Notes: generated by a model from the letters alone, not told the origin. Counted from the stretch's first letter, positions 3,516 through 20,826 are shown. The stretch: DNA of 64,000 nt from an uncultured Ilumatobacteraceae bacterium (GCA_964556225.1 CAZKVJ010000005.1:125651-189650); one strand, 5' to 3'. Translations and numbers: made by a program.

Positions 3516-3590
3516 CGCTCCCCTTGTCCCCCGACTGTCGGACCGTCTCGATCGGCCGACATCCTGCCAGATGGCGACAACCACTCACCG

Positions 3591-3607: not shown

Positions 3608-3613
3608 TCTGCG

Positions 3614-3642
3614 TTGACAATGGGCCGGAGGGAGCAGATGCT
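3614..3642 (+). promoter_or_regulatory. Candidate sigma-70-type promoter (TTGACA - 17 nt - GATGCT)
   Basis: TTGACA at 3614-3619 and a TANNNT-like hexamer at 3637-3642 with a 17-nt spacer, about 65 nt upstream of the peptidase start. Confidence 0.35.
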
Positions 3643-3707
3643 GGATCCCGTCCACGGGGAAGCCGAGCGATCCGCCCGCTCTGGAGGCTCGGCAGGAAGG
3701 AGCTTCC

Positions 3708-4814: not shown

Positions 4815-4841
4815 GCGTCGACAACGAAAGAGGTGAGGGAG

Positions 4842-5264: not shown

Positions 5265-5274
5265 CATCCGGGGC

Positions 5275-5709: not shown

Positions 5710-5719
5710 GGCGACGACA

Positions 5720-6028: not shown

Positions 6029-6043
6029 CGTCCCTCCGTGCTC

Positions 6044-6394: not shown

Positions 6395-6508
6395 CGGACG
6401 ATCTTCGCGCCGGCATCCTCCCACGGGAAGGCGAATCGAGTGCGATCTCACGCTCCCACGACGGGAGCTCGCACTCGGATCGCCTGCCCGCTTCGGCGGC
6501 CACCCCCG

Positions 6509-6529
6509 TATCTGACAGACTGTCAGATA
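6509..6529. promoter_or_regulatory. Perfect 10+1+10 palindrome TATCTGACAG-A-CTGTCAGATA (candidate operator)
   Basis: Read directly. It is centred in the divergent intergenic region between the VOC-chagasin-GNAT operon (minus) and the acyl-CoA dehydrogenase operon (plus). Confidence 0.6.
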
Positions 6530-6580
6530 CCAGTCGGCCGGGGGACGAGCCGGCAGGGACGCTCGGGAGGTCCGCGCTGC

Positions 6581-7786
6581 ATGCACATCGGTGACTCGCC
6601 GGACGAGGCCGCGTTCCGCGCCGAGGCCCGCGCCTGGCTGGCCGCCCACGCGGCGCCACGCATCGCCGGCACGGTGCCGGAGTCGGTCGAGCTGGCCGAG
6701 CATGTGAAGCGGTGCAAGGAGTGGCAGGCCACGCTGTTCGAGGGCGGCTGGGCCGGCATCACCTGGCCGGGCGCGTTCGGAGGACGGGGGCTCTCGGCCA
6801 TCCAGGCCGCGATCTTCGCCGAGGAGCAGGCCCAGTTCGACGTCTCGGTGGGGGCCTTCGCCGTGTCGATCGGCATGGTCGGCCCGACGCTGATGGCCCA
6901 CGGCACGCCCGAGCAGCAGCACCGCTTCCTCGAGCCCATGCTGCGCGGCGACCACATCTGGTGCCAGCTCTTCAGCGAGCCCGGGGCCGGCAGCGACCTC
7001 GCCTCGCTCGCCACGCGCGCCGTGCTCGATGGTGACACCTGGGTCGTCAACGGCCAGAAGGTCTGGACCTCGTTCGGGCAGTTCGCCGACTACGGGATCC
7101 TGCTGGCCCGCACCGACCCGGACGTGCCCAAGCACGCCGGCATCACGTACTTCGTCGTCGACATGCGAACCCCGGGCATCGAGGTGCGACCGCTGACGCA
7201 GATCACCGGCGTCGCTCACTTCAACGAGGTGTTCCTCACCGACGTGCGGATCCCGGCCGAGAACGTGGTGGGCGCCGTCGGCGACGGCTGGAAGGTGGCG
7301 AGCACCACGCTCGCCAGCGAGCGGGCGTTCATCGGCTCCGGTGGCGGGTCGTGGACGGTGCCGGAGCTGATCGAGCTCGCCCGGCGCACGGGGCGCGCCG
7401 CCGATCCGGTCGTGCGCCAGGCGCTGATGCGCGCCCACTGCCGCGCTGGCGCGCTCACCTACCTCGGCTACCGCATGCGCACGGCGATGTCGTTGCAGCG
7501 GATGCCCGGCCCGGAGATGCTGGTGATGAAGCTGTTCCTCGCCCGGCACTGGGCGGCCACGCTCGACACCGCGATGGAGGTCCTCGGCGCCGAGGGGCTG
7601 CTGTGGGGCGACGATGCGCTCGACGACGGACGCTGGCAGCAGTCGCTGCTCAGCCAGTTCGCGGTGCGTCTCGGTGGCGGCACCGACGAGGTGCAGCACA
7701 ACATCATCGGTGAGCGCGGCCTCGGACTTCCCCGTGAGCCAGCGCTCGACAAGGGCGTCCCCTGGAGAGATCTGGTGCGGTCATGA
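6581..7786 (+). CDS. Acyl-CoA dehydrogenase (FadE-like, putative alpha subunit of a heteromeric ACAD)
   Basis: Typical ACAD N, middle and C domains (WCQLFSEPGAGSD, TWVVNGQKVWTS, GGGTDEVQHNIIGERGLGLP). ATG at 6581. Confidence 0.9.
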   Translation: MHIGDSPDEAAFRAEARAWLAAHAAPRIAGTVPESVELAEHVKRCKEWQATLFEGGWAGITWPGAFGGRGLSAIQAAIFAEEQAQFDVSVGAFAVSIGMVGPTLMAHGTPEQQHRFLEPMLRGDHIWCQLFSEPGAGSDLASLATRAVLDGDTWVVNGQKVWTSFGQFADYGILLARTDPDVPKHAGITYFVVDMRTPGIEVRPLTQITGVAHFNEVFLTDVRIPAENVVGAVGDGWKVASTTLASERAFIGSGGGSWTVPELIELARRTGRAADPVVRQALMRAHCRAGALTYLGYRMRTAMSLQRMPGPEMLVMKLFLARHWAATLDTAMEVLGAEGLLWGDDALDDGRWQQSLLSQFAVRLGGGTDEVQHNIIGERGLGLPREPALDKGVPWRDLVRS

Positions 7787-8730
7787 GCCACCCTGCGCAC
7801 GACGACTTCTACGAGCAGCTGCAGCGCTTCGTGGGCCTGGAGATCGGCCCGCCGACGCCGGCTCCCGACGAGGTCAACGTGGCGATGATCCGCCACTGGT
7901 GCGAGGCCATGGGCGACGAGAACCCGGTGTACGTCGACCCCGAGGCCGCCGCCGCGAGCGTGCACGGCGGGCTCGTGGCCCCACCCACGATGCTGCAGGC
8001 GTGGGTCATGGTGGGCGTGAAGGGGCCGTCGCGGGGTGGTGACGGTCCGTACGAGCAGATGAACGAGCTGCTGTTCAGCCGGGGCTTCACGAGCGTCGTC
8101 GCCACCAACAGCGAGCAGACGTACCAGCGCTACCTCCGCCCCGGCGACCGGCTCACGATGCGCACGGTCATCGACTCGATCAGCCCGGAGAAGACCACTG
8201 CGCTCGGCACCGGCCACTTCGTGACCACCCGTCAGGATTACTTCGAAGCCGGCGGCGAGCTGGTCGGCTCGATGCTGTTCCGGATCCTGCGGTTCCGCCC
8301 CCCGGCCGCCACGAAGCCCGCGCCCGTGCCCCGGCCCCAGCCGGCCACCACCCATGACAACCGGTGGTGGTTCGAGGCCGTCGGCGAGGGCCGGCTCCTC
8401 ATCCAGCGCTGCACGGGGTGCGGGCGGCTGCGGTTCCCGACGGGCCCGATGTGCCCGGTGTGTCACTCGCTCGGCTGGGACTCGGTCGAAGCGGCGGGCA
8501 CGGGCACGATCCACAGCTTCGTCGTCACCCACTTCCCACAGGTGCCCGGCCTGGAGTACCCGCTCCCGATCGTCCTCGTCGAGCTGGACGAAGGGGTGCG
8601 GATGGTGATGAACACCGTCGACACGCCGAACGATCGCCTGGAGATCGGTGCCCCCGTGACGATCGAGATCCGCGATGCCGGTCCCGGGATGAAGCTGCCG
8701 TTCGCCCGAGTGGAGGGAGGGTCACGATGA
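7783..8730 (+). CDS. Hotdog (MaoC N-terminal-like) dehydratase fused to a DUF35 OB-fold/zinc-ribbon domain (ChsH2-like)
   Basis: The N-terminal half is hotdog-like (MIRHWCEAMGDENPVY). The C-terminal half has CTGCGRLRFPTGPMCPVCHS (4-Cys ribbon) plus an OB fold. ATGA overlap with the upstream ACAD. Confidence 0.8.
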   Translation: MSHPAHDDFYEQLQRFVGLEIGPPTPAPDEVNVAMIRHWCEAMGDENPVYVDPEAAAASVHGGLVAPPTMLQAWVMVGVKGPSRGGDGPYEQMNELLFSRGFTSVVATNSEQTYQRYLRPGDRLTMRTVIDSISPEKTTALGTGHFVTTRQDYFEAGGELVGSMLFRILRFRPPAATKPAPVPRPQPATTHDNRWWFEAVGEGRLLIQRCTGCGRLRFPTGPMCPVCHSLGWDSVEAAGTGTIHSFVVTHFPQVPGLEYPLPIVLVELDEGVRMVMNTVDTPNDRLEIGAPVTIEIRDAGPGMKLPFARVEGGSR

Positions 8731-9860
8731 ACTTCGACCTCGACGACGAGCAGCAGGCCGTGCACGACCTGGCCGCGCAGGTCTTCGCCGGAGAGGCGCC
8801 CCCGGAGCGGGTGCGGGCGGTCGAGCGCGATCCCGACCCCGGGCGGCAGGGCTTCGACCGCAACCTCTGGCAGGCGCTCGCGACCACCGGTCTGCTGGGC
8901 CTGGTCGTGCCGGCGCAGTACGGCGGCAGCGGCAAGGACATGGTCGAGCTCGTCCTGATGCTCGAACAGCAAGGCCGCTGGGTCGCGCCGGTGCCGCTGT
9001 GGGGCACGCTGTGTGCAGCCATGACGATCGCCGAGTGGGGCACCGACGACCAGCGGGCACGCCTCCTGCCGGCGGTGGCGGCGGGCGACACGGTGCTGTC
9101 GAGCGCGCTCGCCGAGCCCGGCGCGAACGACGTCCTCCACCCGAGCGTCATGGCCACACCGGCGCAGGGTGATGGTGGCTGGCGGCTGACGGGCTGGAAG
9201 CCGTCGGTGCCGTTCGGGCGCCACGCCGACGTCGTGCTCGTCCCCGCCCGACGGCCCGACGGCAGCGTGCTGATCGCGCTCGTCGACCTCCACGGTCCGG
9301 GCGTCACGGTGGAACCGGTGCGCACGACGAACCACGAGCCCCAGGCCCACCTCGCTCTCGACGTGCTCGTCGAGGAGGGCGACGTGCTCGGCGGCGAGAG
9401 CGCCGACGGGCTGGGCGCGCTCACCTGGCTCTTCGAGCGGGCCCTCACCGGACTGTGCGCGCTGGCGCTCGGCGTGGCGCAGGGTTCGCTGGCGCTGACC
9501 GCCGAACACGTGTCCCACCGCATCCAGTTCGGCAAGCCGCTCTCGTCGTTCCAGGCGGTGGGCCAGCGTGCCGCCGACGGGTACATCACCACCGAGGCCA
9601 TGCGGGTCACCACGCTGAACGCCGCATGGCGCCTGGCGGAGGGCCTCGACGCCCGGCGTGACGTGCTGAGCGCCGCGTTCTGGGCCACCGAGGGCGGTCA
9701 GCAGGTGGTGCTCGCCGGCCAGCACCTCCACGGCGGCGTCGGTGCCGACATCGACTACCCCGTCCACCGCTACTTCCTCTGGGGCACCCAGCTCGGCACC
9801 GAGCTCGGGGCCGCCAGCGCCCACCTCGCCCGCCTGGGCCGACTGATCGCGACCGGATGA
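8727..9860 (+). CDS. Acyl-CoA dehydrogenase family protein (FadE-like, putative second subunit)
   Basis: ACAD fold (GLLGLVVPAQYGG, FGKPLSSFQAV, HLHGGVGADIDYPVHRYF). The HGG(V/I)G signature is typical of partner subunits of heteromeric steroid ACADs. ATGA overlap on both sides. Confidence 0.85.
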   Translation: MNFDLDDEQQAVHDLAAQVFAGEAPPERVRAVERDPDPGRQGFDRNLWQALATTGLLGLVVPAQYGGSGKDMVELVLMLEQQGRWVAPVPLWGTLCAAMTIAEWGTDDQRARLLPAVAAGDTVLSSALAEPGANDVLHPSVMATPAQGDGGWRLTGWKPSVPFGRHADVVLVPARRPDGSVLIALVDLHGPGVTVEPVRTTNHEPQAHLALDVLVEEGDVLGGESADGLGALTWLFERALTGLCALALGVAQGSLALTAEHVSHRIQFGKPLSSFQAVGQRAADGYITTEAMRVTTLNAAWRLAEGLDARRDVLSAAFWATEGGQQVVLAGQHLHGGVGADIDYPVHRYFLWGTQLGTELGAASAHLARLGRLIATG

Positions 9861-10294
9861 TGCCCACCTCACCCCGCCGAAGCTCACCCCGCCACGACGA
9901 CGTCCAGGTCGGCGACGAGCTGGCGCCGCTGTCGATCCCGCTCACCCGCACGCTGATCGTGTCGACGGCGATCGCCAGCCGTGACTACCAGGAGGTCCAC
10001 CACGACCCGGACCTCGCCCGCGAGCGCGGCAGCAAGGACATCATCATGAACATCCTGACGACGAACGGCTTCGTCGGGCGCTACGTCACGGACTGGGCCG
10101 GGCCGGACGCGATCATCCGCAGCGTCAAGATCCGCCTCGGCGTGCCGAACTACCCGGGCGACACCATGGTGATGACGGGCACCGTCACCGCCAAGGACGC
10201 CGCCACCGTCACCGTGGCCGTCCGGGGGGCCAACCAGCTCGGCGACCACGTGAACGCCACGGTCGAGCTGACCCTGCCGGGAGGTGCGCACTGA
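9857..10294 (+). CDS. MaoC family (R)-specific enoyl-CoA hydratase (ChsH1-like)
   Basis: Single hotdog domain with ASRDYQEVHHDPDLARERG (hydratase-2 motif region). Confidence 0.8.
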   Translation: MMPTSPRRSSPRHDDVQVGDELAPLSIPLTRTLIVSTAIASRDYQEVHHDPDLARERGSKDIIMNILTTNGFVGRYVTDWAGPDAIIRSVKIRLGVPNYPGDTMVMTGTVTAKDAATVTVAVRGANQLGDHVNATVELTLPGGAH

Positions 10295-11472
10295 TGCCGA
10301 ACCGGCTGGGCGGGCGCACCGCGATCGTCGGCATCGGCGCCACCGAGTTCTCGAAGGACTCGGGGCGCAGCGAGATGAGCCTCGCCTGTGAGGCGGTGCT
10401 GGCGGCCATCACCGATGCCGGGCTGTCGCCGTCCGAGGTCGACGGGATGGTCAGCTACACGGCCGACAACAACCCGGACATCGAGATCGCCCGCCATGTC
10501 GGCATCGGCGAGCTGCGCCACTTCAGCCGGGTCCACTACGGCGGCGGGGCGGCCTGCGGCACCGTGGCCATGGCGGCCATGGCCGTGGCCACCGGTGCCG
10601 CCGACGTCGTGGTGTGCTACCGGGCGTTCAACGAGCGCAGCGGCCGGCGCTTCGGTGCCGGGGTGCAGGACCTGGGCACCGACGCCACGGCCGAGCGGGC
10701 GCAGTTCTCGTGGACCACCCCGTTCGGGCTGCTCACGCCGGCCAGCTGGGTGGCGATGGTGGCCCGGCGCTACATGCACGTCTCGGGCGCCACCAGCGAG
10801 GACTTCGGCCGGGTCGCCGTGGCCGACCGCCGCCACGCCGCCACCAACCCGGCGGCCTGGTTCTACGGCCAGCCCATCACCCTGGCCGACCACCAGGCCA
10901 GCCGGTGGATCGTCGAGCCGCTCCACCTGCTCGACTGCTGCCAGGAGAGCGACGGGGCGCAAGCGCTGGTGGTCACGTCCGTCGAGCGGGCACGCGACCT
11001 CCCGAACCCGGCGGCGGTGGTCACCGCGGCGGCCCAGGGCGCCGGCGCCGAGCAGTGGACGATGACCAGCTTCTACCGCGATGACATCGCCCAGCTCCCG
11101 GAGATGGGGCTGGTGGCGCGAGAGCTGTGGGGTTCGTCGGGGCTGTCCCCGGCCGACATCCAGACCGCCGTGCTGTACGACCACTTCACGCCCTACGTGC
11201 TGATGCAGCTCGAGGAGTTCGGCTTCTGCGGTCGTGGCGAGGCGAAGGACTTCCTTCGCGACGGCGCCATCGAGCTCGGCGGTCGCCTCCCGATCAACAC
11301 CCACGGCGGCCAGCTCGGCGAGGCGTACATCCACGGGATGAACGGCATCGCCGAGGGCGTCCGCCAGGTGCGCGGCACCAGCGTCAACCAGGTGCCCGAT
11401 GTCCACAACGTGCTCGTCACCGCTGGCACCGGCGTGCCCACCAGCGGTCTGATCCTGTCCAGCGCGAGATGA
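10294..11472 (+). CDS. Thiolase-like lipid-transfer protein (Ltp2/SCP-x thiolase-like, putative retro-aldolase)
   Basis: Thiolase-fold protein of the Ltp class, lacking obvious classical thiolase Cys motifs (AIVGIGATEFSK..., NTHGGQLGEAYIHGMNG). TGATG junction with the upstream gene. Confidence 0.8.
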   Translation: MPNRLGGRTAIVGIGATEFSKDSGRSEMSLACEAVLAAITDAGLSPSEVDGMVSYTADNNPDIEIARHVGIGELRHFSRVHYGGGAACGTVAMAAMAVATGAADVVVCYRAFNERSGRRFGAGVQDLGTDATAERAQFSWTTPFGLLTPASWVAMVARRYMHVSGATSEDFGRVAVADRRHAATNPAAWFYGQPITLADHQASRWIVEPLHLLDCCQESDGAQALVVTSVERARDLPNPAAVVTAAAQGAGAEQWTMTSFYRDDIAQLPEMGLVARELWGSSGLSPADIQTAVLYDHFTPYVLMQLEEFGFCGRGEAKDFLRDGAIELGGRLPINTHGGQLGEAYIHGMNGIAEGVRQVRGTSVNQVPDVHNVLVTAGTGVPTSGLILSSAR

Positions 11473-11485
11473 ACGGAGCCCTGTC

Positions 11486-12718
11486 GTGACCACCGGATCG
11501 CTCAACCCCGTCCTCGAGTTCGAGACCCTCGACATCATCTCGAACGCCGCCTACCGGAACGGGCCGCCGCACGAGCTGTTCACCCTGATGCGCCGCGAGG
11601 CGCCGATCCTGCGCGCCCGGGGCATCGAGGAGGGCTTCCCCGAGTGGTTCTGGGCCGTCACCCGCCACGCCGACGTGATCGAGGTCAGCCGCAAGTTCCA
11701 GCTGTACTCGTCGGCTCGCAAGGGCGCCCTCATGATGGAAGAGCGCCCGGACCTCGACGTGGCCCGGATGATGATCGACACCGACCCGCCGGAGCACACC
11801 CGCCTGCGGATGCTCGTCAACCGGGGCTTCACGCCGAAGCAGATCCGTCTGCTCGAGGACCACTACCGCGACGTCTCGGCTCGTCTGGTCGACGAGGCGA
11901 TGGCCGAGGGCACGGTCGAGTTCGTGACGAAGGTGTCGAGCGAGCTGCCGCTGATCGCCATCGCCGAGCTGATGGGCATCCCGGTCGAGGACCGCCGGAT
12001 GGTGTTCGAGTGGTCGAACCGGATGATCGGCGCCCAGGACCCCGACTACGCCGGCTCCGACCCCGACGACGCCGCCAACGCCGCCGCCGAGCTCTACATG
12101 TACGCCAACCAGCTCGCCGCCGACCGCCGCCTGAACCCGAAGAACGACATCGTCACCACGCTCATCTCCGCCGAGGGGGACGACCAGCTGAGCGAGCACG
12201 AGTTCGACCTGTTCGCCCTGCTGTTCGCGGTGGCCGGCAACGAGACCACCCGCAACGGCATCAGCCACGGCCTGCTCGCGCTCCTCGAGCACCCCGAGGC
12301 GTTCGAGACCCTGAAGGACGACCCGTCGAAGATCGCCGCCGGCATCGAGGAGATGCTCCGCTGGGGCACGCCCGTGAACCACTTCCGCCGCACCGCCACG
12401 TGCGACGTGGAGCTGCACGGGGTGGAGATCGAAGAGGGCGACCCCGTCGCGATGTTCTACGTGTCGGCCAACCGCGACGAGGACGTGTTCGACGACCCGT
12501 TCCGCTTCGACGTGCTGCGAGAGCCGAACCCCCACCTCACGTTCGGCGGCGGCGGACCGCACTTCTGCCTCGGCTCGAACCTGGCCCGCCTCGAGATGCG
12601 GATCATCTTCGAGGAGCTGCTGGCCCGGGTGAACCGCATCGAGCTGGCCGGCGAGGTCACCCGGCTCCACTCCAGCTTCATCCACGGCATCAAGCAGCTG
12701 CCGGTGCGCCTCTCCTGA
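11486..12718 (+). CDS. Cytochrome P450
   Basis: I-helix AGNETTR, EEMLRW (ExxR) and heme loop FGGGGPHFCLG. GTG start 13 nt after the thiolase stop. Confidence 0.93.
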   Translation: MTTGSLNPVLEFETLDIISNAAYRNGPPHELFTLMRREAPILRARGIEEGFPEWFWAVTRHADVIEVSRKFQLYSSARKGALMMEERPDLDVARMMIDTDPPEHTRLRMLVNRGFTPKQIRLLEDHYRDVSARLVDEAMAEGTVEFVTKVSSELPLIAIAELMGIPVEDRRMVFEWSNRMIGAQDPDYAGSDPDDAANAAAELYMYANQLAADRRLNPKNDIVTTLISAEGDDQLSEHEFDLFALLFAVAGNETTRNGISHGLLALLEHPEAFETLKDDPSKIAAGIEEMLRWGTPVNHFRRTATCDVELHGVEIEEGDPVAMFYVSANRDEDVFDDPFRFDVLREPNPHLTFGGGGPHFCLGSNLARLEMRIIFEELLARVNRIELAGEVTRLHSSFIHGIKQLPVRLS

Positions 12719-12757: not shown

Positions 12758-13150
12758 ATGCTGACGGAGCGGCTCCCAGTGCTCATCGGTGCCGAGCAGC
12801 GCCGCCGCCTCGAAGCCGAGGCTGCACGGAGCGCCACGTCCGCTCGCCACGCTGGTCCGGGAGGCGATCGACGCCGCGCTCTTGCCCACGGGCCTCCGGT
12901 GCCGTGGTGGTCGATACGACGGTGCTGTTCCACGCGCTCGGCCGCGAACACCCGCGGCGCGAACCCTCCCACGACCTCGTGCGGGCGATCGACAACGGGC
13001 AGGTCAACGCAACCACGACGGTCGAGGTCATCGAGGAGCTCGCCCACGTGCGCGCCGGCGAACCGACCGGGCCGAGACCGCCCTGCGTGCCGGCGAGCAC
13101 GCCGCCCCGTTACCCCTCGTCACGGGACTCCCCAGGTCCCGCTCCTGCCG
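12758..13150 (+). pseudogene. Decayed vapBC-like type II TA remnant (RHH antitoxin + PIN toxin, frameshifted and truncated)
   Basis: The RHH-like MLTERLPVLIGAEQRRRLEAEAARS continues as ATLVREAIDAAL only after a frameshift near 12840. The PIN-like VVVDTTVLFHALG...TTTVEVIEELAHVRA (from 12904) shifts frame again near 13055 (RRTDRAETALRAGEHAAPLPLV). It then runs into the 3' end of the convergent CoA-transferase. Confidence 0.45.
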
Positions 13151-13159
13151 GTACAGAGC

Positions 13160-14350
13160 TCAGCCGAAGGCGCCCCGAGTGTGCAGGTCAGCGATGTCGT
13201 CCCAGGTGAGGCCGGCCTCGAGGAGCACCTCTTCGGTGTGCTGGCCGAGCTCGGGTGCGACCACCCCGGGCTGGGGCGGGGTCTCCGACATCTGCAGTGG
13301 CGAGCCGACCATGGTGAGCGGCCCGAACGTGGGGTGGTCGGCAGTGAACAGGTAGCCATTGGCCCAGACCTGCGGGTCGGTGGCCACGTCGGCGTAGTTC
13401 CGCACCGGGGCGAAGCGGATGCCGGCGGCCTTGAGGATCTCGCACCACTCATGGGTGGTGCGCCCGTGGAACGTGGTCTCGAGCTCCGCGAACAGCTGTC
13501 GCTTCGTGTCGCCGGTGTAGAGGATCCCCTGGAAGCGAGGGTCGGTGAACAGGTCCTCACGCTCGATCGCCCGGTAGAAGGCCTCGCGGGCCGGCAGCGG
13601 GACGCCGACCAGCGCGATCCAGCCATCGGCGGTGCGGAAGATGCCGTACGCGGCGTGGATCAGCGGGTGGCCGCGGTTCGCCCGGCCAGGAAGCGAACCG
13701 GTGAGGAAGTAGTGCGTGTACTCGGCCGCCTGGGCGTAGATCTGGCCGCCGATCAGCGAGACCTCGACCTTCTGACCCTGGCCGGTGCGCTCGCGCCAGA
13801 GCAGCGCGGCCAGGATCCCCACGGCGAGGTGCTGGGAGGCGATGTGGTCGGCGATGGTGGCGCCCACCGGCGTGACCTCGCCGCCGTCGGCGCCGGTGGT
13901 GGCGATCAGGCCGCCGGCCGCCTGACCGGCGATGTCGGCGCCCTCCCGGTCGGCCTCCGGACCGAGCGAGCCGTGCAGGCTGCCGGCGCCGTACACGATG
14001 CGGGGGTTCACGGCCGACAGGTCCTCGTAGCCCAGACCCCAGGCCTCCATCGTGCCGGGCTTGAAGTTGCTGATCACCACGTCGGCGGAGGCGGCCAGGC
14101 GCAGGAACGCCTCGCGGCCGCCCTCCGTGCGCACGTCGAGGGCCACGCTGCGCTTGTCGCGATTCAGCGCCAGGAAGTAGGCGCTGCGCGGGTCGCCCTC
14201 GTCGACGATGATCCAGCGGGCCTGCTCACCGAAGCCCGGCAGCTCGACTTTGACCACGTCGGCGCCCAGATCGGCGAGCATCGCCGCCGCCTGCGGCCCC
14301 TGCACCAGCAGACCGATCTCCAGAACCCGGATCCCATCGAGCGCCCCCAT
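13160..14350 (-). CDS. CaiB/BaiF family (family III) CoA-transferase / racemase-like protein
   Basis: MGALDGIRVLEIG...GPQAAAMLADLGADVVKVE is typical of family III CoA-transferases. ATG at 14350. Confidence 0.88.
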   Translation of the reverse strand: MGALDGIRVLEIGLLVQGPQAAAMLADLGADVVKVELPGFGEQARWIIVDEGDPRSAYFLALNRDKRSVALDVRTEGGREAFLRLAASADVVISNFKPGTMEAWGLGYEDLSAVNPRIVYGAGSLHGSLGPEADREGADIAGQAAGGLIATTGADGGEVTPVGATIADHIASQHLAVGILAALLWRERTGQGQKVEVSLIGGQIYAQAAEYTHYFLTGSLPGRANRGHPLIHAAYGIFRTADGWIALVGVPLPAREAFYRAIEREDLFTDPRFQGILYTGDTKRQLFAELETTFHGRTTHEWCEILKAAGIRFAPVRNYADVATDPQVWANGYLFTADHPTFGPLTMVGSPLQMSETPPQPGVVAPELGQHTEEVLLEAGLTWDDIADLHTRGAFG

Positions 14351-14381
14351 GCAGAGCGACGCTACCCAACCCACCCCCTCC

Positions 14382-14433
14382 ACTTCTGACGGAGTGTCAT
14401 CGCTCGTAGAGCGATCTTTCCCGCAGAGAACTG
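14382..14433 (-). promoter_or_regulatory. 52-nt structured leader element, copy 1 (candidate cis-regulatory RNA)
   Basis: The minus-strand read is CAGTTCTCTGCGGGAAAGATCGCTCTACGAGCGATGACACTCCGTCAGAAGT. It is 46/52 identical to 23367-23418. It has a 7-bp stem ATCGCTC/GAGCGAT with a 3-nt loop, a basal helix CTGCGG/CCG(T)CAG, and is followed by GGAGG. Confidence 0.5.
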
Positions 14434-14454: not shown

Positions 14455-15984
14455 GTGACCGGGCCGGTGCTGCTGGACGGGGGGGCCGCCTCCATCGCCG
14501 ACGTGGTGGCCGTGGCGCGCCACGACCGTCCGGTCGAGATCGGTCCGGCGGCCCGGGCAGCGATGGCCGCCAGCCGCGCCCGGGTCGAGCAGCTCGCGGC
14601 GTCCGAGATCCCCGCCTACGGCATCTCCACCGGCTTCGGATCGCTCGCCAACCGGCACATCCCCGTGGAGCACCGCCTGGCGCTGCAGCGCTCGCTGGTG
14701 CGCTCCCACGCCGCCGGCATGGGCGAACCGGTCGAGCGCGAGGTCGTCCGGGCGATGATGATGCTGCGCCTGCGGACCCTGTGCACCGGCCACACGGGTG
14801 TCCGTCCCGAGCTGGCCGACGCGCTGGCCGGCCTGCTCAACGCCGGCATCACCCCGGTGGTGCGCGAGCACGGCTCGCTCGGGTGCAGCGGCGACCTGGC
14901 CCCGCTCGCCCACGTGGCGCTCGTGCTCACCGGCGAGGGCGAGGCCACCGGACCGGACGGATCGACCGGACCGGTCCCCGCGCTGCTCGCCGCCGCAGGG
15001 CTCGAGCCGGTGGAGCTCCGCGAGAAGGAGGGCCTGGCGCTCATCAACGGCACCGACGGCATGCTCGGGATGCTGTGCCTCGCTTGCGACGACCTGGCCG
15101 AGCTGCTCCGGGCCGCCGACGTCGCGGCCGCGCTCAGCGTCGAGGCGCTGCTCGGCACCGACCAGGTCTTCCTTCCGGAGCTGCAGGCACTGCGCCCCCA
15201 TCCGGGCCAGGCGGCGAGCGCCGCCAACCTGCTGGCACTGCTCGCCGGCTCGGCGATGGTGGCCTCGCACCGCGAGGGCGACCTACGGGTGCAGGACGCC
15301 TACTCGCTGCGCTGCCATCCCCAGGTCGCCGGAGCGGTCCGCGACACGCTGGTGTTCGCGGTGCAGACCGCCGAGCGTGAGCTGGCGGCGGCGATCGACA
15401 ACCCGGCCGTGCTCCACGACGGCCGGGTCAGCTCCAGCGGCAACTTCCACGGCGCGCCCGTCGGCTACGCCTGCGACTTCCTCGCCATCGCCGCCGCCGA
15501 CCTCGGCGCCATCGCCGAACGGCGCACCGACCGCCACCTCGACCGCAACCGATCACACGGCCTGGCGCCGTTCCTGGCCGAGGACCCCGGCGTGGACTCG
15601 GGCTACATGATCGCCCACTACACCCAGGCGGCGATGGTGGCCGAGAACCGCCGCCTCGCCGCACCGGCCAGCGTCGACTCGATCCCGACGTCGGCCATGC
15701 AGGAGGACCACGTCTCGATGGGCTGGGGCGCCGCCCGCAAGCTGCGCCAGGTGCTCGACAACCTCACCCGGATCGTCGCCATCGAGCTGGCGACGGCCGC
15801 TCGCGCTGCCGCCCTGCGGGCACCGCTCGCGAGCTCGGCCCCGCTCGCCGCCGCCCGCGCCGCCATCGACGCCGCTGCCCACGGACCGGGACCCGACCGC
15901 TTCCTGTCGCCCGAGCTGCGGGCCGTCGAGGACCTCGTGCGGTCACGAGCCATCACCTCCGCCGTCGGCACCGAGCTTCGCTGA
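14455..15984 (+). CDS. hutH: Histidine ammonia-lyase
   Basis: Full-length HAL similarity (YGISTGFGSLA, GSLGCSGDLAPLAH MIO region, NFHGAP, QEDHVSMG). GTG start. Confidence 0.93.
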   Translation: MTGPVLLDGGAASIADVVAVARHDRPVEIGPAARAAMAASRARVEQLAASEIPAYGISTGFGSLANRHIPVEHRLALQRSLVRSHAAGMGEPVEREVVRAMMMLRLRTLCTGHTGVRPELADALAGLLNAGITPVVREHGSLGCSGDLAPLAHVALVLTGEGEATGPDGSTGPVPALLAAAGLEPVELREKEGLALINGTDGMLGMLCLACDDLAELLRAADVAAALSVEALLGTDQVFLPELQALRPHPGQAASAANLLALLAGSAMVASHREGDLRVQDAYSLRCHPQVAGAVRDTLVFAVQTAERELAAAIDNPAVLHDGRVSSSGNFHGAPVGYACDFLAIAAADLGAIAERRTDRHLDRNRSHGLAPFLAEDPGVDSGYMIAHYTQAAMVAENRRLAAPASVDSIPTSAMQEDHVSMGWGAARKLRQVLDNLTRIVAIELATAARAAALRAPLASSAPLAAARAAIDAAAHGPGPDRFLSPELRAVEDLVRSRAITSAVGTELR

Positions 15985-16005
15985 GGAGATTCCAGGAGAC
16001 TGACC

Positions 16006-17664
16006 ATGACCTCGGCCCCACGCACCGTCCGCTCACCGCGAGGCGCCACCCGAACGTGCGCCACCTGGCCGATCGAGGCCGCCTACCGGATGCTGCAGAA
16101 CAACCTCGACCCGGAGGTGGCCGAGCACCCGGCCGAGCTGGTCGTCTACGGCGGCACCGGCAAGGCGGCGCGCGACTGGGCCAGCTTCGACGCCATCTGC
16201 CGCACCCTCACGACGCTGCAGCCCGACGAGACGCTGCTCGTCCAGAGCGGCAAGCCGGTCGGCGTGATGCGCACCCACGAGTGGGCGCCCCGGGTCCTGA
16301 TCGCCAACTCCAACCTGGTCGGGGACTGGGCCACGTGGGACGAGTTCCGCCGGCTCGAGGCCATGGGGCTGATGATGTACGGCCAGATGACCGCCGGCTC
16401 CTGGATCTACATCGGCACCCAGGGCATCCTCCAGGGCACCTACGAGACGTTCGCCGCCGTGGCCGCCAAGCGCTTCGGCGGTTCGCTCACGGGCACCATC
16501 ACCCTGACGGGTGGCGTGGGCGGGATGGGTGGCGCCCAGCCGCTCGCCATCACCATGAACGGCGGCGTGGCGATCTGCCCGGACGTCGACCCGACCCGCA
16601 TCGAGCGCCGCATCCAGACCCGCTACCTCGACACCGTCGCCCACGATCTCGACGAGGCGCTGCGCCTGGCGGAGCAGGCCCGTACCGATGGCCGGGCGCT
16701 GTCCATCGGCCTGGTCGCCAACTGCGCCGACGTCTACCCCCGTCTGCTGGCCGCCGGCGCCCCGATCGACGTCGTCACCGACCAGACCAGCGCTCACGAC
16801 CCACTCGCCTACGTCCCCGAGGGCCTGTCCCTGGAGGAGGCGGCCGAGCTGCGTCGCGCCGACCCCGACGAGTACATCCGCCGGGCGAGGACCTCGATGG
16901 CCGAGCACTGCGCCGCCATGGTGGGGTTCCAGGAGCGTGGCGCCGAGGTCTTCGACTACGGCAACAGCCTGCGGGCCGAGGCCATGCTCGGCGGCTTCGA
17001 CCGGGCGATGGAGTACCCCGGCTTCGTGCCCGCCTACATCCGGCCGCTGTTCTGCGAGGGCAAGGGCCCGTTCCGGTGGGCGGCGCTGTCCGGCGACCCG
17101 GCCGACATCGCCGCCACTGACCGGGCCGTGCTCGAGACCTTCCCCGACAACGACGCGCTCGCCCGCTGGATCCGCATGGCCGGCGAGCGGGTCGCCTTCC
17201 AGGGGCTGCCGGCGCGCATCTGCTGGCTCGGCTACGGCGAGCGCGACCGCATGGGGCTGCGGTTCAACGAGATGGTCGCCGACGGCACCGTCAGCGCCCC
17301 GATCGTCATCGGCCGCGACCACCTCGACTGCGGGTCGGTCGCCTCGCCGTACCGGGAGACGGAGGCGATGCTCGACGGCTCGGACGCCATCGCCGACTGG
17401 CCGCTGCTGAACGCCATGGTCAACGTCGCCTCCGGTGCCAGCTGGGTCAGCATCCACCACGGCGGCGGCGTGGGCATCGGCCGCTCGATCCACGCCGGGC
17501 AGGTGGCCGTGGCCGATGGCACGGAGCTGGCCGCGCAGAAGCTCGAACGGGTGCTCACGAACGACCCCGGCATGGGGGTGATCCGCCACGTCGACGCCGG
17601 CTACGACCAGGCCGCTGTGGTGGCCGAGGAGCGGGGCGTGCGGATCCCGATGCGCGAGGGCTGA
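16006..17664 (+). CDS. hutU: Urocanate hydratase
   Basis: Characteristic sequence throughout ([51 protein letters not shown]). Confidence 0.95.
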
Positions 17665-17666
17665 GG

Positions 17667-18242
17667 GTGGCGGTCCGCCCGATCCTGACCATCGGACACC
17701 CGGTGCTGCGCGAGCGCGCTCGCGAGGTGGGCGCCGAGGAGCTCGCCTCACCGGACGTGCAGGCACTGGTCGACGACCTGGTCGACACCATGCGCCACGC
17801 CAGCGGGGCCGGGCTCGCCGCGCCGCAGGTCGGCGTGCCGCTGCGGATCGCGGTGGCCGAGGTGACGCACAACCCGCGCTACCCGTACAAGCCGCCGATC
17901 CCGCTGACCGTGGTGGTGAACCCCGTCATCGAGCCGCTCGACGGCGAGCTGGTCGAGATCAACGAGGGCTGCCTGTCCGTGCCCGATCTGCGCGGCAGCG
18001 TGATGCGCCACGTGAGCATCCGGCTCCGGTTCCTCGACCGTCACGGCGTGCCTCACGACGAGGTGCGTCGCGGCCTGACCGCGGGCACGTTCCAGCACGA
18101 GTGCGACCACCTCGACGGCACGCTGTTCGTCGACCGGGTCGTCGACACCAGGACGCTCACGACCTGGGAGCAGTTCGAGCGATTCCACCGCGCCGCGTTC
18201 GTCGAGCGCATCACCGCCTTCGTGGAGCGCGTCGGGTCGTGA
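17667..18242 (+). CDS. def: Peptide deformylase family metallohydrolase embedded in the hut operon
   Basis: All three PDF motifs are present: GAGLAAPQVG, EGCLSVP and QHECDHLDG. GTG start 2 nt after the hutU stop, and the stop overlaps the hutF GTG (GTGA). Confidence 0.85.
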   Translation: MAVRPILTIGHPVLRERAREVGAEELASPDVQALVDDLVDTMRHASGAGLAAPQVGVPLRIAVAEVTHNPRYPYKPPIPLTVVVNPVIEPLDGELVEINEGCLSVPDLRGSVMRHVSIRLRFLDRHGVPHDEVRRGLTAGTFQHECDHLDGTLFVDRVVDTRTLTTWEQFERFHRAAFVERITAFVERVGS

Positions 18243-19576
18243 CGACCGCCGCGACCACGACATGGTGCGAGCTGGCCTGGCTCGGAGGGACGACGCCGGC
18301 GGCGGGCGTCGTGGTGGACGTCGAGGGCGAGCACATCACCGCGGTGCGCGCCGGTGTCGCCACCCCACCCGCCGGCGCCACGGTCCGCCGGGGCCTCACG
18401 CTGCCCGGCATGGCGAACGCCCACAGCCACGCGTTCCACCGGGCGCTGCGCGGGCGGACCCACGGGGGCACCGGATCGTTCTGGACGTGGCGGGACCAGA
18501 TGTACGCCGTCGCCGCCGACCTCGACCCCGATCGCTACCGGCGCCTGGCCACAGCGGTGTTCGCCGAGACGGTGCTGGCCGGCTTCACGGCCGTGGGCGA
18601 GTTCCACTACCTGCACCACGATCCCGCGGGCCGCCCCTACGCCGAGCCGAACGCCATGGGCGACGCGCTCGTGGACGCAGCCGCCACCGCCGGCATCCGC
18701 CTGACGCTGCTCGACACCTGCTACCTGCACGGTGGCATCGGCCAGGAGCTGAACGAGGTCCAGCGCCGGTTCGCCGACGCGAGCGTCGACGCCTGGGCGG
18801 CCCGGGCGGCGGATCGGCGGGAGCCACCCCACGTCCGCCTCGGCGCCGCCGTGCACTCGGTGCGGGCCTGCACACCGGGCGAGATCCGCACCGTGGCGGC
18901 GTGGGCCACGAAGCGCGCGGCGCCCCTCCACGCCCACGTGAGCGAGCAGCCCGCCGAGAACGAGGCGTGCCGGGCCGCGTACGCGACGACACCGACCGGG
19001 GTGCTGTCCGCGGCCGGCGCGCTGGGCGAGCGGTTCACCGCCGTTCACGCGACGCACCTCGGCCCGTCCGACGTGGAGGCCCTTGCCACCGGGTCGGTGT
19101 GCCTGTGCCCGACGACGGAGCGCGACCTCGCCGACGGGATCGGACCCGCCGGCGCGCTGGCCGCCGCCGGCGCCCGGCTGTGCATCGGCAGCGACTCGCA
19201 CGCCGTCATCGACCCGTTCGAGGAAGCCCGGGCGGTCGAGCTCGACGAGCGGCTTGCCACGGGCGCCCGCGGCACGCTCGGCGTCGAGACGCTCGCCGCG
19301 GTCGCCACCGTCAACGGCCACGGCGCGCTCGGCTGGTCCGATGCCGGACGCATCGAGGTCGGCTGGCGCGCCGACCTGGTGACGGTGTCGCTCGACAGCG
19401 TCCGCCTCGCCGGCACGCCCCCGGCCGACGCGCTGGCCGGCGCGCTCTACGCCGCCGGAGCGTGCGACGTGACCCACGTGGTCGTCGGCGGGCGCGAGGT
19501 GGTGACCGACGGCCACCACGCTCGCCTCGACGTGGCCGCCGAGCTCACGGCGGTCATCCGAGAGGTGCTCGGGTGA
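18239..19576 (+). CDS. hutF: Formimidoylglutamate deiminase
   Basis: Amidohydrolase with HutF-type N-terminus (PGMANAHSHAFHRALRGRT...GSFWTWRDQMY). GTG 18239 is in frame inside the track ORF 18101..19576. Confidence 0.85.
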   Translation: MTTAATTTWCELAWLGGTTPAAGVVVDVEGEHITAVRAGVATPPAGATVRRGLTLPGMANAHSHAFHRALRGRTHGGTGSFWTWRDQMYAVAADLDPDRYRRLATAVFAETVLAGFTAVGEFHYLHHDPAGRPYAEPNAMGDALVDAAATAGIRLTLLDTCYLHGGIGQELNEVQRRFADASVDAWAARAADRREPPHVRLGAAVHSVRACTPGEIRTVAAWATKRAAPLHAHVSEQPAENEACRAAYATTPTGVLSAAGALGERFTAVHATHLGPSDVEALATGSVCLCPTTERDLADGIGPAGALAAAGARLCIGSDSHAVIDPFEEARAVELDERLATGARGTLGVETLAAVATVNGHGALGWSDAGRIEVGWRADLVTVSLDSVRLAGTPPADALAGALYAAGACDVTHVVVGGREVVTDGHHARLDVAAELTAVIREVLG

Positions 19577-20826
19577 TCGACGTCGACCTGATGGTGCGCA
19601 GTGCCCACGAGCTGCTCACCTGCCACGGTCCGCCCACCGGAGTGCGCCGGCCGATCGCCGTCGAGGTGATCCCGGATGGCGCGGTCGCCGTCCGCGACGG
19701 CAGCATCGTCGCCGTCGGTCCGACCGCCGACATCGATGTCCGCTATCGCGGCGCCGCCACCATCGACGCCACCGGACAGCTGGTGACCCCCGGCTTGGTG
19801 GACCCCCACACCCACCTCGTCCACGCCGGGTCCCGCCACCACGAGTGGGAGCACCGCGTCGCCGGGACCCCCTGGACCGGGCGACCGGCCGGCATCGCCT
19901 CGAGCGTGGTCGCCACCCGGGCCGCCACCGACGACGAGCTCACCGCGCACGCACTCGCCGACCTCGACGTCGCCCTGGCCCACGGCACGACGACGCTCGA
20001 GGCCAAGTCCGGCTACGGCCTGGACCACGACACCGAGCTGCGCCTGCTGCGCATCGCCACCCACCTGCATCACCCCGTCGAGGTGATCCCCACGTTCCTC
20101 GGTGCCCACGTCGTGCCGCCCGAGATGGCCGACCGGCGCAACGAGTACGTGCAGCAGGTGATCGGGATGCTGCCCGAGGCACGCCCGCTCACGGAGTGGT
20201 GCGACGTCTGGTGTGACCCGGTTGCGTTCAGCGCCGACGAGGCAGCCCGGATCCTCACCGCCGCCCGGGCCGCCGGCTTCGGCTGCCGGGTGCACGCCGA
20301 CCAGACCGGCTGCGCGGGCGGCACGGGCCTCGCCGTGCGCGCTGGGGCGGCATCGGTCGACCACCTCGACGAGGTGTCCGACGCCGACCTCGCGCTGCTC
20401 GGGGGCAGCGACACCGTCGCCGTGCTGCTGCCCGGCTGCACGCTGCACCTGCTCCAGGCCGGCCAACGGGACTGGCCGGCGTGGGCCCGGCGGGTGATGG
20501 ACAGCGGCGCGGTGGTGGCGCTCTCCACCGACTACAACCCGGGCAGCTGCCCCACGCTGTCCCTGCCGGTGGTGATGGGACTCGCCGCCCGCCTCTACCG
20601 GATGCGCACCGCCGAGATCTGGTACGGCGTCACGCTCAACGCCGCCGCCGCGCTGCGCCGGGCTGATCGCATCGGCAGCCTCGCCCCGGGCAAGCAGGCC
20701 GACCTGGTGCTGTGGTCGGTGCCGGAGCACGGCATGGTCGTGCACCGCTTCGGCACGAACCTCGTCGACACCGTCGTGAAGCGAGGCCAGGTCGTGGTCA
20801 GCGCTGGTGCCGTCGTGCGTGCGTGA
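19573..20826 (+). CDS. hutI: Imidazolonepropionase
   Basis: TPGLVDPHTHLV, LEAKSGYGL, TFLGAH, VHADQ and STDYNPGS are typical HutI motifs. GTGA overlap with hutF. Confidence 0.92.
   Translation: MIDVDLMVRSAHELLTCHGPPTGVRRPIAVEVIPDGAVAVRDGSIVAVGPTADIDVRYRGAATIDATGQLVTPGLVDPHTHLVHAGSRHHEWEHRVAGTPWTGRPAGIASSVVATRAATDDELTAHALADLDVALAHGTTTLEAKSGYGLDHDTELRLLRIATHLHHPVEVIPTFLGAHVVPPEMADRRNEYVQQVIGMLPEARPLTEWCDVWCDPVAFSADEAARILTAARAAGFGCRVHADQTGCAGGTGLAVRAGAASVDHLDEVSDADLALLGGSDTVAVLLPGCTLHLLQAGQRDWPAWARRVMDSGAVVALSTDYNPGSCPTLSLPVVMGLAARLYRMRTAEIWYGVTLNAAAALRRADRIGSLAPGKQADLVLWSVPEHGMVVHRFGTNLVDTVVKRGQVVVSAGAVVRA

What the first reader, a model, noticed from the sequence alone, without database searches (positions are those of the whole stretch)
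17667..18242. Peptide-deformylase homologue translationally coupled inside the histidine-utilisation operon: candidate N-formylglutamate deformylase
hutH-hutU-[def-like]-hutF-hutI form one co-directional block. The def-like GTG lies 2 nt after the hutU stop, and the def/hutF and hutF/hutI junctions are GTGA overlaps (18239-18242 and 19573-19576). HutF (formimidoylglutamate deiminase; PGMANAHSHAF...SFWTWRDQMY) produces N-formyl-L-glutamate, which must then be deformylated to glutamate plus formate. In Pseudomonas that step is done by HutG (FGase family). From memory, Streptomyces has an M20-type amidohydrolase between hutU and hutF. No such gene is present in this window. The same slot holds a 191-aa protein with all three catalytic PDF motifs intact (GAGLAAPQ, EGCLSVP, QHECDHLDG). 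PDF chemistry, a metal-dependent N-formyl amidase, is exactly what the missing step needs, so a non-orthologous replacement of HutG by a Def paralogue is plausible. To my knowledge this has not been described. Pocket-lining positions look atypical by eye, but that is weak evidence: G-A-G in motif 1 where Ile/Val is usual, and TAGTFQHE before motif 3. The alternative is that this is simply the housekeeping def.
Basis: partly seen in the sequence, partly recalled or inferred. Interest (0 to 1): 0.7.

Follow-up and report, generated by a model that had tools for sequence, protein, structure and literature searches.

The report
Peptide deformylase homologue inside histidine-utilisation operon
In Acidimicrobiia, an intact peptide-deformylase-family gene sits inside the histidine-degradation operon, almost always abutting hutF, so it is a good but untested candidate for the pathway's missing last enzyme, N-formylglutamate deformylase.

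Summary
Window 14455-20826 (+) encodes hutH-hutU-def-hutF-hutI, with def 2 nt after the hutU stop and GTGA overlaps at def/hutF and hutF/hutI.

- **The protein.** It is a genuine PDF-family member: Pfam 158 bits, all catalytic motifs present, AF2 model TM 0.87 to Leptospira PDF.
- **The window.** It holds no FGase, M20, arginase-type HutG, second def or fmt.
- **Linkage.** All 80 closest genome loci carry hut genes next to def, and hutF is the downstream neighbour in 76. Def also lies inside two other hut gene orders, in def-hutF pairs standing alone, and in hutU-PhyH-def units. Two hutU-hutI-hutH loci that lack hutF also lack def. None of 51 loci with more distant PDFs is hut-linked.
- **The subfamily.** Def belongs to an 'AGT-type' subfamily with altered S1' residues: EcPDF I44/I128/C129 become A/G/T.

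Two caveats remain. The AGT signature also occurs in non-hut members, for example in Myxococcota. I could not test whether these genomes carry a second, housekeeping def.

The best reading is a HutG analogue (about 0.5). The main rival is an ordinary PDF. I found no prior description.

The parts
14455..15984 (+). hutH, histidine ammonia-lyase (509 aa)
   Evidence: PF00221 at 595 bits; TIGR01225 at 635 bits, above its cutoff.
16006..17664 (+). hutU, urocanate hydratase (552 aa)
   Evidence: TIGR01228 at 910 bits. The thiourocanate hydratase models score below their cutoffs.
17667..18242 (+). def-like gene: AGT-type peptide-deformylase-family protein (191 aa), candidate N-formylglutamate deformylase
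   Evidence: PF01327 at 157.8 bits. PDB best hit is LiPDF 1SV2, E 4e-42. AF2 pLDDT 95.9, with TM 0.87 to 1sv2. The GTG start lies 2 nt after the hutU stop. The N-terminus matches homologues.
17805..17828 (+). PDF motif 1, G47-A-G-L-A-A-P-Q54. A48 corresponds to EcPDF Ile44, an S1' pocket residue.
   Evidence: The role of Ile44 (AtPDF Ile42) comes from PMC3101196.
17877..17894 (+). CD-loop insertion R71-Y-P-Y-K-P76. Tyr74 is diagnostic of the AGT subfamily; Lys75 is invariant in it (A 45%, K 23% in other PDFs).
   Evidence: Invariant in 74 AGT-type sequences. In other PDFs position 74 is mostly D, E or N.
17961..17984 (+). N99 followed by PDF motif 2, E100-G-C102-L-S-V-P106. Cys102 is a metal ligand. 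N99 is the one position that separates hut-linked from non-hut AGT-type proteins.
   Evidence: N in 98% of architecture A and 83% of B/C; Y or F in non-hut AGT-type; W in other PDFs.
18069..18110 (+). R135-G-L-T-A-G140-T141-F-Q-H144-E145-C-D-H148: PDF motif 3 (HExxH) preceded by the AGT signature. G140 corresponds to EcPDF Ile128 and T141 to Cys129.
18239..19576 (+). hutF, formimidoylglutamate deiminase (445 aa). Its product is N-formyl-L-glutamate.
   Evidence: NF006681 at 603 bits (cutoff 362); TIGR02022 at 452 bits (cutoff 413). Its start overlaps the def stop as GTGA at 18239-18242.
19573..20826 (+). hutI, imidazolonepropionase (start at 19573, or at an in-frame Met a few codons downstream)
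   Evidence: TIGR01224 at 368 bits (cutoff 298), aligned from residue 34.

Best explanation
The def-like gene encodes a peptide-deformylase-fold metallo-amidase that Acidimicrobiia use as the last enzyme of the five-step Hut pathway. In that pathway HutH, HutU and HutI make formiminoglutamate, and HutF deiminates it to N-formyl-L-glutamate.

The proposal is that the Def homologue hydrolyses N-formyl-L-glutamate to glutamate plus formate. It would use the standard PDF chemistry: a metal held by Cys102, His144 and His148; Glu145 as general base; and Gln54 with the Leu103 backbone as oxyanion hole. This would make it a non-orthologous replacement of FGase-type HutG.

**Shown here:** family membership, intact catalytic residues, operon embedding and tight coupling to hutF, conservation of that coupling through operon rearrangements, and the absence of any other candidate hydrolase nearby.

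**Inferred:** the substrate. Also inferred is that the small residues at the S1' positions (A48, G140, T141), together with conserved basic or polar residues (K75, R135, N99), adapt the pocket to an acidic side chain and a free carboxylate.
For: 1. **Context in the window.** Def is coupled between hutU and hutF, and the window holds no FGase, M20 or arginase-type HutG.
2. **Genome loci.** All 80 closest species-level genome loci have hut genes beside def. hutF is the next gene in 76 of them, and in 72 it abuts def.
3. **Rearrangements.**
   - Architecture A is hutH-hutU-def-hutF-hutI.
   - Architecture B is hutC-hutU-hutF-hutI-def-hutH (L082, L094, L173).
   - Architecture C is hutU-hutF-def-hutI (L096, L101, L106, L112).
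   - Def-hutF pairs occur with no other hut gene within 10 kb (L040, L053; L043 is the same pair on a short contig).
   - hutU-PhyH-def occurs without hutF nearby (L003, L017).
   - Sources.
4. **Sampling that did not start from def.** Of four loci found through HutU, the two with hutF have def. The two without hutF (L174, L176) have none.
5. **Specificity.** In one metagenome sample, 15 of 29 AGT-type PDF loci are hut-linked against 0 of 51 other PDFs. Fisher p = 1e-8, though the loci are not phylogenetically independent.
6. **No competing candidate.** Clustering of all neighbouring ORFs shows no other conserved hydrolase family. The extra conserved genes are a PhyH-like oxygenase and a fatty-acid-desaturase-like protein.
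7. **Pocket residues.** The positions that form the hydrophobic Met-binding S1' pocket in studied PDFs (EcPDF Ile44 and Ile128; PMC3101196) are Ala and Gly here, and Cys129 is Thr.
8. **An open slot.** The other actinobacterial candidate, the Streptomyces M20 protein, was reported to have no N-formylglutamate deformylase activity (PMC3223725).
9. **General inference.** An essential, constitutively needed PDF would be oddly placed if translationally coupled inside an inducible catabolic operon.
Against: 1. The AGT signature is shared by members that are not hut-linked: Polyangium aurulentum def next to a beta-eliminating lyase, Aldedh-def, PepP-def with overlapping genes, RsgA-def-PALP, and marine Myxococcales. 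It therefore cannot be a hut-specific adaptation. Only N99, and partly R135, track hut linkage.
2. The closest characterised relatives are true peptide deformylases: LiPDF at 43-44% identity in the structural alignment (phmmer E 4e-42), plus Pseudomonas, Burkholderia and Xanthomonas PDFs. NCBIfam equivalog and subfamily models for PDF are passed.
3. All hut-linked cases found lie in one class, Acidimicrobiia. Inherited synteny explains part of the conservation.
4. Whether these genomes hold another def was not testable. If they do not, this gene must at least also be the housekeeping PDF.
5. From my own knowledge of PDF substrate studies, not checked here: PDFs work poorly on formyl-amino acids with a free carboxylate and disfavour acidic P1' residues. 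Real re-engineering of the pocket would be needed, and I could not inspect model coordinates.
Confidence: 0.5

Rival explanations
1. It is an ordinary peptide deformylase, either housekeeping or a redundant second copy. On this view it removes formyl groups from nascent proteins, and its position in the hut operon is inherited synteny within Acidimicrobiia with no role in histidine catabolism.
For: - It passes every PDF family test.
- Its subfamily occurs in other phyla in unrelated contexts. One is an overlap with a PepP-type aminopeptidase, which fits N-terminal processing.
- All hut-linked cases are from one class.
- No second def was seen in any of the 80 genome loci or the window, although those cover only about 20 kb per genome.
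Against: - Def stays with hut genes through at least three gene orders and several operon splits, and it is most faithfully attached to hutF.
- It is absent from the two hutF-less hut operons.
- No def in the 172 loci then held (L001-L172) lies near fmt.
- Translational coupling inside a catabolic operon is an odd way to express an essential enzyme (inference).
- These hutF operons would be left without any formylglutamate hydrolase nearby.
Confidence: 0.3
2. It is bifunctional: the cell's peptide deformylase, whose relaxed pocket also hydrolyses N-formylglutamate. One gene would then serve both roles, and it would have been captured by the hut operon for higher expression during growth on histidine.
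For: - Catalytic machinery is intact and similarity to true PDFs is high.
- The S1' residues are smaller.
- hut linkage is conserved.
- Non-hut members of the same subfamily sit in generic contexts.
Against: - There is no direct evidence.
- It requires basal expression independent of hut induction, and no internal promoter could be detected. The scan is uninformative at 72% G+C.
Confidence: 0.12
3. It is a small-molecule deformylase or amidase acting on a different hut-related compound. One possibility is a formyl or formimino intermediate made by the PhyH-like or desaturase-like oxygenases that often share the operon. Another is formiminoglutamate itself.
For: A PhyH-like gene lies between hutU and def in 23 of the 80 genome loci. 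A fatty-acid-desaturase-like gene occurs in 12 hut loci.
Against: - The window and most loci lack those oxygenase genes yet keep def.
- hutF is the constant partner (76 of 80), and its product is the obvious formyl-amide substrate.
Confidence: 0.08

Closest known systems
Bacterial type-1 peptide deformylase (Def, EC 3.5.1.88), especially the Leptospira interrogans PDF group with the enlarged CD loop (PDB 1SV2, 1Y6H, 1SZZ)
   Same: - Same fold: TM 0.87, rmsd about 1 Å.
- 43-44% identity in the Foldseek alignment; phmmer E 4e-42.
- All three catalytic motifs, the TMRHA segment and the RYP-containing CD-loop insertion.
   Different: - The S1' positions are A48, G140 and T141 instead of V, I and V.
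- The CD loop reads RYPYKP instead of RYPGTP.
- An aromatic residue before EGCLS is replaced by Asn in hut-linked members.
- There is a roughly 20-residue C-terminal helix extension.
- The gene is embedded in a hut operon rather than standing alone or beside fmt.
HutG, N-formylglutamate deformylase/amidohydrolase of Pseudomonas (FGase family, PF05013, EC 3.5.1.68)
   Same: - The proposed reaction is the same.
- The position in the pathway is the same: encoded with hutF in a hut cluster, downstream of formimidoylglutamate deiminase.
   Different: - No sequence or fold relationship. The only Pfam hit of the window protein is PF01327.
- The function here is inferred, not shown.
Streptomyces M20/COG0624 'alternative N-formylglutamate deformylase' candidate (SEED subsystem 'Experimental - Histidine Degradation')
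   Same: It is an actinobacterial protein proposed from comparative genomics (a SEED histidine-degradation subsystem) to fill the same missing step.
   Different: - It belongs to a different family (M20).
- The Streptomyces avermitilis protein was reported to have no deformylase activity (PMC3223725, Table 3 case 20).
- M20 genes are absent from the Acidimicrobiia hut operons. The only ones seen lie 7 kb away beside ribosomal-protein genes in L174 and L176.
Formiminoglutamase (arginase-family HutG, EC 3.5.3.8) of the four-step Hut pathway
   Same: It is the terminal enzyme of histidine utilisation and yields glutamate.
   Different: - It acts on formiminoglutamate directly and makes HutF unnecessary.
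- It is not present in the window, and these operons carry hutF.

Membership tests
Peptide deformylase family (PF01327 / TIGR00079) | Significant match to the family profile above the curated cutoffs | tested here: met
   PF01327 at 157.8 bits (cutoff 22.8). NF001159 at 164 (cutoff 125). TIGR00079 at 109.9 (cutoff 103.95, passed narrowly).
Peptide deformylase family (PF01327 / TIGR00079) | Three catalytic motifs: GxGxAAxQ; EGCLS (Cys ligand); QHExDH (two His ligands plus the catalytic Glu) | tested here: met
   G47AGLAAPQ54, E100GCLS104 and Q143HECDH148 are present. They are invariant across 74 subfamily members.
Peptide deformylase family (PF01327 / TIGR00079) | PDF alpha+beta fold | tested here: met
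   AF2 pLDDT 95.9, pTM 0.91. All 50 listed Foldseek PDB hits are PDFs, with TM 0.87 to 1sv2.
Peptide deformylase family (PF01327 / TIGR00079) | Hydrophobic S1' pocket for the Met side chain (EcPDF Ile44, Ile86, Leu125, Ile128, Cys129) | tested here: inconclusive
   Ile86 and Leu125 are kept (I98, L137). Ile44, Ile128 and Cys129 are A48, G140 and T141. Related active PDFs also vary at these positions: R and V in the 'ARV' group. No coordinates were available to measure the pocket.
Peptide deformylase family (PF01327 / TIGR00079) | Deformylation of N-formyl-Met peptides (EC 3.5.1.88) | not testable with these tools
   Needs an enzyme assay.
Housekeeping def (functional role) | Sole or primary def of the genome, often beside fmt | tested here: inconclusive
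   No fmt lies within about 10 kb of def in any of the 172 loci then held (L001-L172) or in the window. No second PDF is in those stretches.
FGase / HutG N-formylglutamate amidohydrolase family (PF05013) | Sequence membership in PF05013 | tested here: not met
   The only Pfam family hit is PF01327. It is not a member; at most it is a functional analogue.
Hut pathway, N-formylglutamate deformylase step (functional role) | Co-operonic and co-occurring with hutF, in the absence of another enzyme for the step | tested here: met
   hutF is the adjacent downstream gene in 76 of 80 loci. Three architectures and free-standing def-hutF pairs exist. Both hutF-less hut loci lack def. No FGase or M20 lies in the operons.
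Hut pathway, N-formylglutamate deformylase step (functional role) | Hydrolysis of N-formyl-L-glutamate to glutamate plus formate (EC 3.5.1.68) | not testable with these tools
   Needs an enzyme assay or genetics.

The most novel reading that the evidence does not exclude
A peptide-deformylase-fold enzyme has been recruited from protein maturation into small-molecule catabolism as the N-formylglutamate deformylase of the Acidimicrobiia Hut pathway. If so, the 'AGT-type' PDF subfamily as a whole (A/G/T at the S1' positions, RYPYKP lid) may consist of formyl-amino-acid deformylases rather than peptide deformylases. This would be the first non-ribosomal metabolic role for the PDF family. It would also fill a step for which the actinobacterial M20 candidate tested negative in 2011 (PMC3223725).
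Probability: 0.45. Interest if true: 0.75.

Novelty: new variant of a known kind. Interest (0 to 1): 0.62.

Why it matters
- **An unassigned step.** The HutF branch of histidine degradation needs a formylglutamate hydrolase. The only established one is the FGase-type HutG of Pseudomonas. The M20 candidate proposed for Actinobacteria was tested and found inactive (PMC3223725).
- **A concrete candidate.** Acidimicrobiia, including Ilumatobacteraceae, were recovered here from many soil, freshwater and marine metagenomes. A conserved, operon-embedded PDF homologue gives them a cheaply testable candidate for the step.
- **If confirmed:**
  - It would be a clear case of non-orthologous gene displacement.
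  - It would be the first catabolic, small-molecule role for the PDF fold.
  - It would give a sequence signature for re-annotating many 'peptide deformylase' genes (more than 8000 database relatives were hit).
  - It would caution against counting def paralogues as redundant antibiotic targets.
- **If refuted.** The locus would remain an unusually stable association of an essential translation-related gene with a catabolic operon.

Tried and rejected
1. **Second def or fmt in the same genomes.**
   - A six-frame PDF HMM over the window and all 80 genome loci found one PDF each.
   - tblastn with E. coli Fmt (sequence from memory) over all 172 loci found nothing.
   - Whole genomes could not be reached. 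The window's own def is indexed only on a 6-kb contig.
   - I considered spending the last protein search on a 'canonical' actinobacterial Def. I rejected this because the top 120 hits would be relatives of whatever query I supplied, not Acidimicrobiia.
2. **Metagenome scan with P0288 to replicate architecture B.** The 80 loci were still useful as a broad PDF sample, and they revealed architecture C.
3. **High-identity representatives P0149, P0177 and P0163.** They looked like actinobacterial-type N-termini but turned out to be frameshifted AGT-type genes.
4. **Promoter and terminator scan of the operon.** Nothing was found on the + strand. The scan is uninformative at 72% G+C.
5. **The extra genes as a hidden FGase.** The roughly 800-bp insert between hutU and def, and the roughly 1-kb gene between hutI and hutH in architecture C, are a PhyH-like dioxygenase (Pfam) and a fatty-acid-desaturase-like membrane protein (His-box motifs read by eye, no profile scan).
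6. **The AGT signature as a hut-specific adaptation.** Rejected, because non-hut members share it.
7. **Literature.** Seven full-text searches combined peptide deformylase with formylglutamate, histidine utilisation, hutF, urocanate hydratase or Streptomyces. None found a paper describing the linkage.

Full report
**1. The observation**

Window 14455-20826 on the + strand carries five co-directional genes.
- Profile searches identify them as hutH, hutU, a peptide-deformylase (PDF) family gene, hutF and hutI. All score above curated cutoffs.
- Reading the bases confirms the junctions. The hutU TGA is at 17662-17664 and the def GTG at 17667. The sequence GTGA at 18239-18242 holds the def stop and the hutF start.
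- The hutF/hutI GTGA at 19573-19576 exists. However, the hutI start could be an in-frame Met a few codons downstream (residue 7 of the translation), because the family model aligns only from residue 34.
- I called about 55 ORFs by GC3 and scanned them all against Pfam. There is no FGase (PF05013), no M20 peptidase, no arginase-type formiminoglutamase and no formyltransferase.
- A six-frame PDF HMM finds only this one PDF.
- The operon is flanked by a divergent CoA-transferase gene upstream and a convergent glycosyltransferase gene downstream.

**2. What the protein is**

It is unambiguously a PDF-family member.
- PF01327 scores 158 bits. The motifs G47AGLAAPQ54, E100GCLS104 and Q143HECDH148 are intact.
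- The AlphaFold2 model is confident (pLDDT 95.9). Its best structural matches are all PDFs, led by Leptospira interrogans PDF (TM 0.87).
- LiPDF is also the best sequence match among solved structures (E 4e-42).

A search of 1.84 billion cluster representatives, followed by alignments, defines a subfamily that I call AGT-type. Its features are:
- motif 1 reads GAG;
- the enlarged CD loop reads RYPYKP;
- the helix carrying HExxH is preceded by A-G-T;
- there is a C-terminal TTW...F...R...G-S helix extension.

In E. coli numbering, Ile44, Ile128 and Cys129 become Ala, Gly and Thr. Ile44 and Ile128 (AtPDF Ile42 and Ile130) are two of the residues that shape the hydrophobic S1' pocket for the Met side chain (PMC3101196). 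The AGT element is a true signature.

**3. Is the hut linkage conserved?**

- **Genome scan.** Scanning one genome per species (GTDB) with the protein gave 80 loci at 70-82% identity, all MAGs labelled Ilumatobacteraceae or Acidimicrobiia or similar. tblastn with the window's Hut proteins shows hut genes beside def in 80 of 80.
- **Neighbours.**
  - The downstream neighbour is hutF in 76, abutting or overlapping in 72.
  - The upstream neighbour is hutU in 48 and a PhyH-like dioxygenase (itself following hutU) in 23.
- **Partial units.** Where the operon is broken, def still sits with a hut gene.
  - Def-hutF pairs occur with no other hut gene within 10 kb (L040, L053; L043 is the same pair on a short contig).
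  - hutU-PhyH-def occurs without hutF nearby (L003, L017).
  - Def is separated from hutF by inserted genes in L005, L023 and L039.
- **Other gene orders.** More distant members (52-63% identity) lie in two further architectures.
  - Architecture B is hutC-hutU-hutF-hutI-def-hutH. It occurs in L082, L094 and L173. In L173 def is split over three frames in an indel-ridden assembly.
  - Architecture C is hutU-hutF-def-hutI(-x-hutH). It occurs in L096, L101, L106 and L112.
  - HutU of the architecture-B lineage is named Acidimicrobiia by NCBI. So every hut-linked case I found is within that one class.
- **Sampling that did not start from def.** Four loci were reached through HutU. The two with hutF have def. 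The two with only hutU-hutI-hutH (L174, L176, sister MAGs) have neither hutF nor def.
- **Specificity.** In the metagenome sample, 15 of 29 AGT-type loci are hut-linked, and most of the remainder are contigs too short to judge. None of the 51 loci with more distant PDFs is hut-linked. Fisher p = 1e-8, but the loci are not phylogenetically independent.
- **No other candidate.** Clustering all neighbouring ORFs of the 80 loci shows no other conserved hydrolase.

**4. What weakens the specialised-enzyme reading**

- The AGT subfamily is not confined to hut operons.
  - In the isolate Polyangium aurulentum (CP079217) it lies beside a beta-eliminating lyase.
  - Elsewhere it follows an aldehyde dehydrogenase.
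  - It overlaps a PepP-type M24 aminopeptidase.
  - It lies between rsgA and a PALP enzyme.
  - It sits in an unrelated marine Myxococcales context.
- A neighbour-joining tree places these non-hut members basal to a crown of hut-linked Acidimicrobiia sequences. This is not a robust phylogeny.
- The pocket substitutions are therefore a subfamily trait. Only Asn99 cleanly tracks hut linkage, and Arg135 partly does. The residue before the EGCLS motif is Tyr or Phe in non-hut AGT members and Trp in other PDFs.
- The closest characterised proteins are real fMet-peptide deformylases.
- The crucial question is whether the same genomes hold a separate housekeeping def, or an FGase elsewhere. I could not answer it. 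No fmt or second PDF lies within the ±10 kb that I hold.

**5. Mechanism proposed**

- HutH, HutU and HutI produce formiminoglutamate. HutF, a confident equivalog match, produces N-formyl-L-glutamate.
- The PDF homologue is translated from the same message and nearly always abuts hutF. I propose that it hydrolyses the formamide bond by the standard PDF metal-hydroxide mechanism, releasing glutamate and formate.
- Shown: family membership, intact catalytic residues, operon coupling and its conservation, and absence of alternatives nearby.
- Inferred: the substrate, and a role for the smaller S1' residues and the conserved K75, R135 and N99 in accommodating carboxylates.
- I put this reading at about 0.5. 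An ordinary PDF retained by synteny is about 0.3, a bifunctional enzyme about 0.12, and another hut-related substrate about 0.08.

**6. Comparison with what is known**

- The protein is a member of the PDF family and works like one chemically.
- It is not a member of the FGase/HutG family, since its only Pfam hit is PF01327. It would be a functional analogue.
An M20 (COG0624) protein was indeed proposed as an 'alternative N-formylglutamate deformylase' in a SEED subsystem, though the source table gives no gene position. Gerdes et al. 2011 report no deformylase activity for the S. avermitilis protein (PMC3223725, Table 3 case 20). As far as that report goes, the actinobacterial enzyme for this step is unassigned.
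- Seven full-text searches found no paper linking PDF homologues to histidine utilisation. The library lacks most subscription journals, so this is absence of evidence only.

**7. Verdict**

I rate it a new variant of a known kind, with interest 0.62.

Noticed in passing
L010:9208-9990; L005:9180-10004; 27 loci listed: A PhyH-family (PF05721, Fe/2-oxoglutarate dioxygenase-like) gene of about 260-274 aa lies between hutU and def in 23 of the 80 genome loci. It occurs somewhere in 27 loci and is absent from the window. Its role in a histidine-utilisation operon is unexplained.
   Followed up: partly
L096:9061-9972; L106:9754-10698; also L010, L012, L026, L035, L041, L042, L045, L055, L067, L101: A membrane protein of about 303-314 aa with fatty-acid-desaturase-type His boxes (HELVHGH, HxxHH, HIAHHDEP) lies between hutI and hutH in architecture C. 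It recurs in 12 hut loci. The identification is from motifs read by eye plus tblastn recurrence; no profile scan was done.
   Followed up: partly
L174:10001-14464 and L176:10001-14453: Two sister MAGs (GCA_019348135.1, GCA_019348115.1) have a compact hutU-hutI-hutH operon with neither hutF nor def. An M20 peptidase lies 7 kb upstream beside rpsF-ssb-rpsR-rplI-dnaB. How they dispose of formiminoglutamate is not visible in the locus.
   Followed up: no
L081:10001-11678; L083:8472-10579; L090:6625-8576; L087:2923-5609: Non-hut AGT-type PDFs are tightly coupled to other enzymes. These are a beta-eliminating lyase/threonine-aldolase-like gene (Polyangium aurulentum), an aldehyde dehydrogenase (3-nt gap), a PepP-type M24 aminopeptidase (4-nt overlap), and rsgA plus a PALP enzyme. 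No common theme is apparent.
   Followed up: partly
L173:14173-14745: In a 2.1-Mb ENA scaffold, the def between hutI and hutH is readable only across three frames. hutH and hutC are also split. This looks like assembly indel error rather than pseudogenisation, and the gene callers missed the def.
   Followed up: yes
window 12758-14389 (+) versus 13160-14383 (-): The long + strand ORF upstream of hutH (543 aa) has no family hit. It is overlapped by a confident family III CoA-transferase on the - strand (PF02515, 366 bits). The + ORF is almost certainly a high-G+C shadow ORF. hutH therefore has a 71-nt divergent intergenic region upstream.
   Followed up: yes
L063:10001-11811 and L068:1259-3000: In two genome loci def is followed directly by hutI, with no hutF between them. 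L068 also has an IclR-type regulator and an inverted hutH upstream. hutF may lie elsewhere in these genomes.
   Followed up: no
window 1-12718: Upstream of the hut operon is a block resembling steroid or lipid side-chain degradation: an IclR regulator, an acyl-CoA dehydrogenase, a ChsH2-like hydratase with OB fold and zinc ribbon, a MaoC dehydratase, a thiolase-like protein and a cytochrome P450. It appears unrelated to the finding.
   Followed up: no
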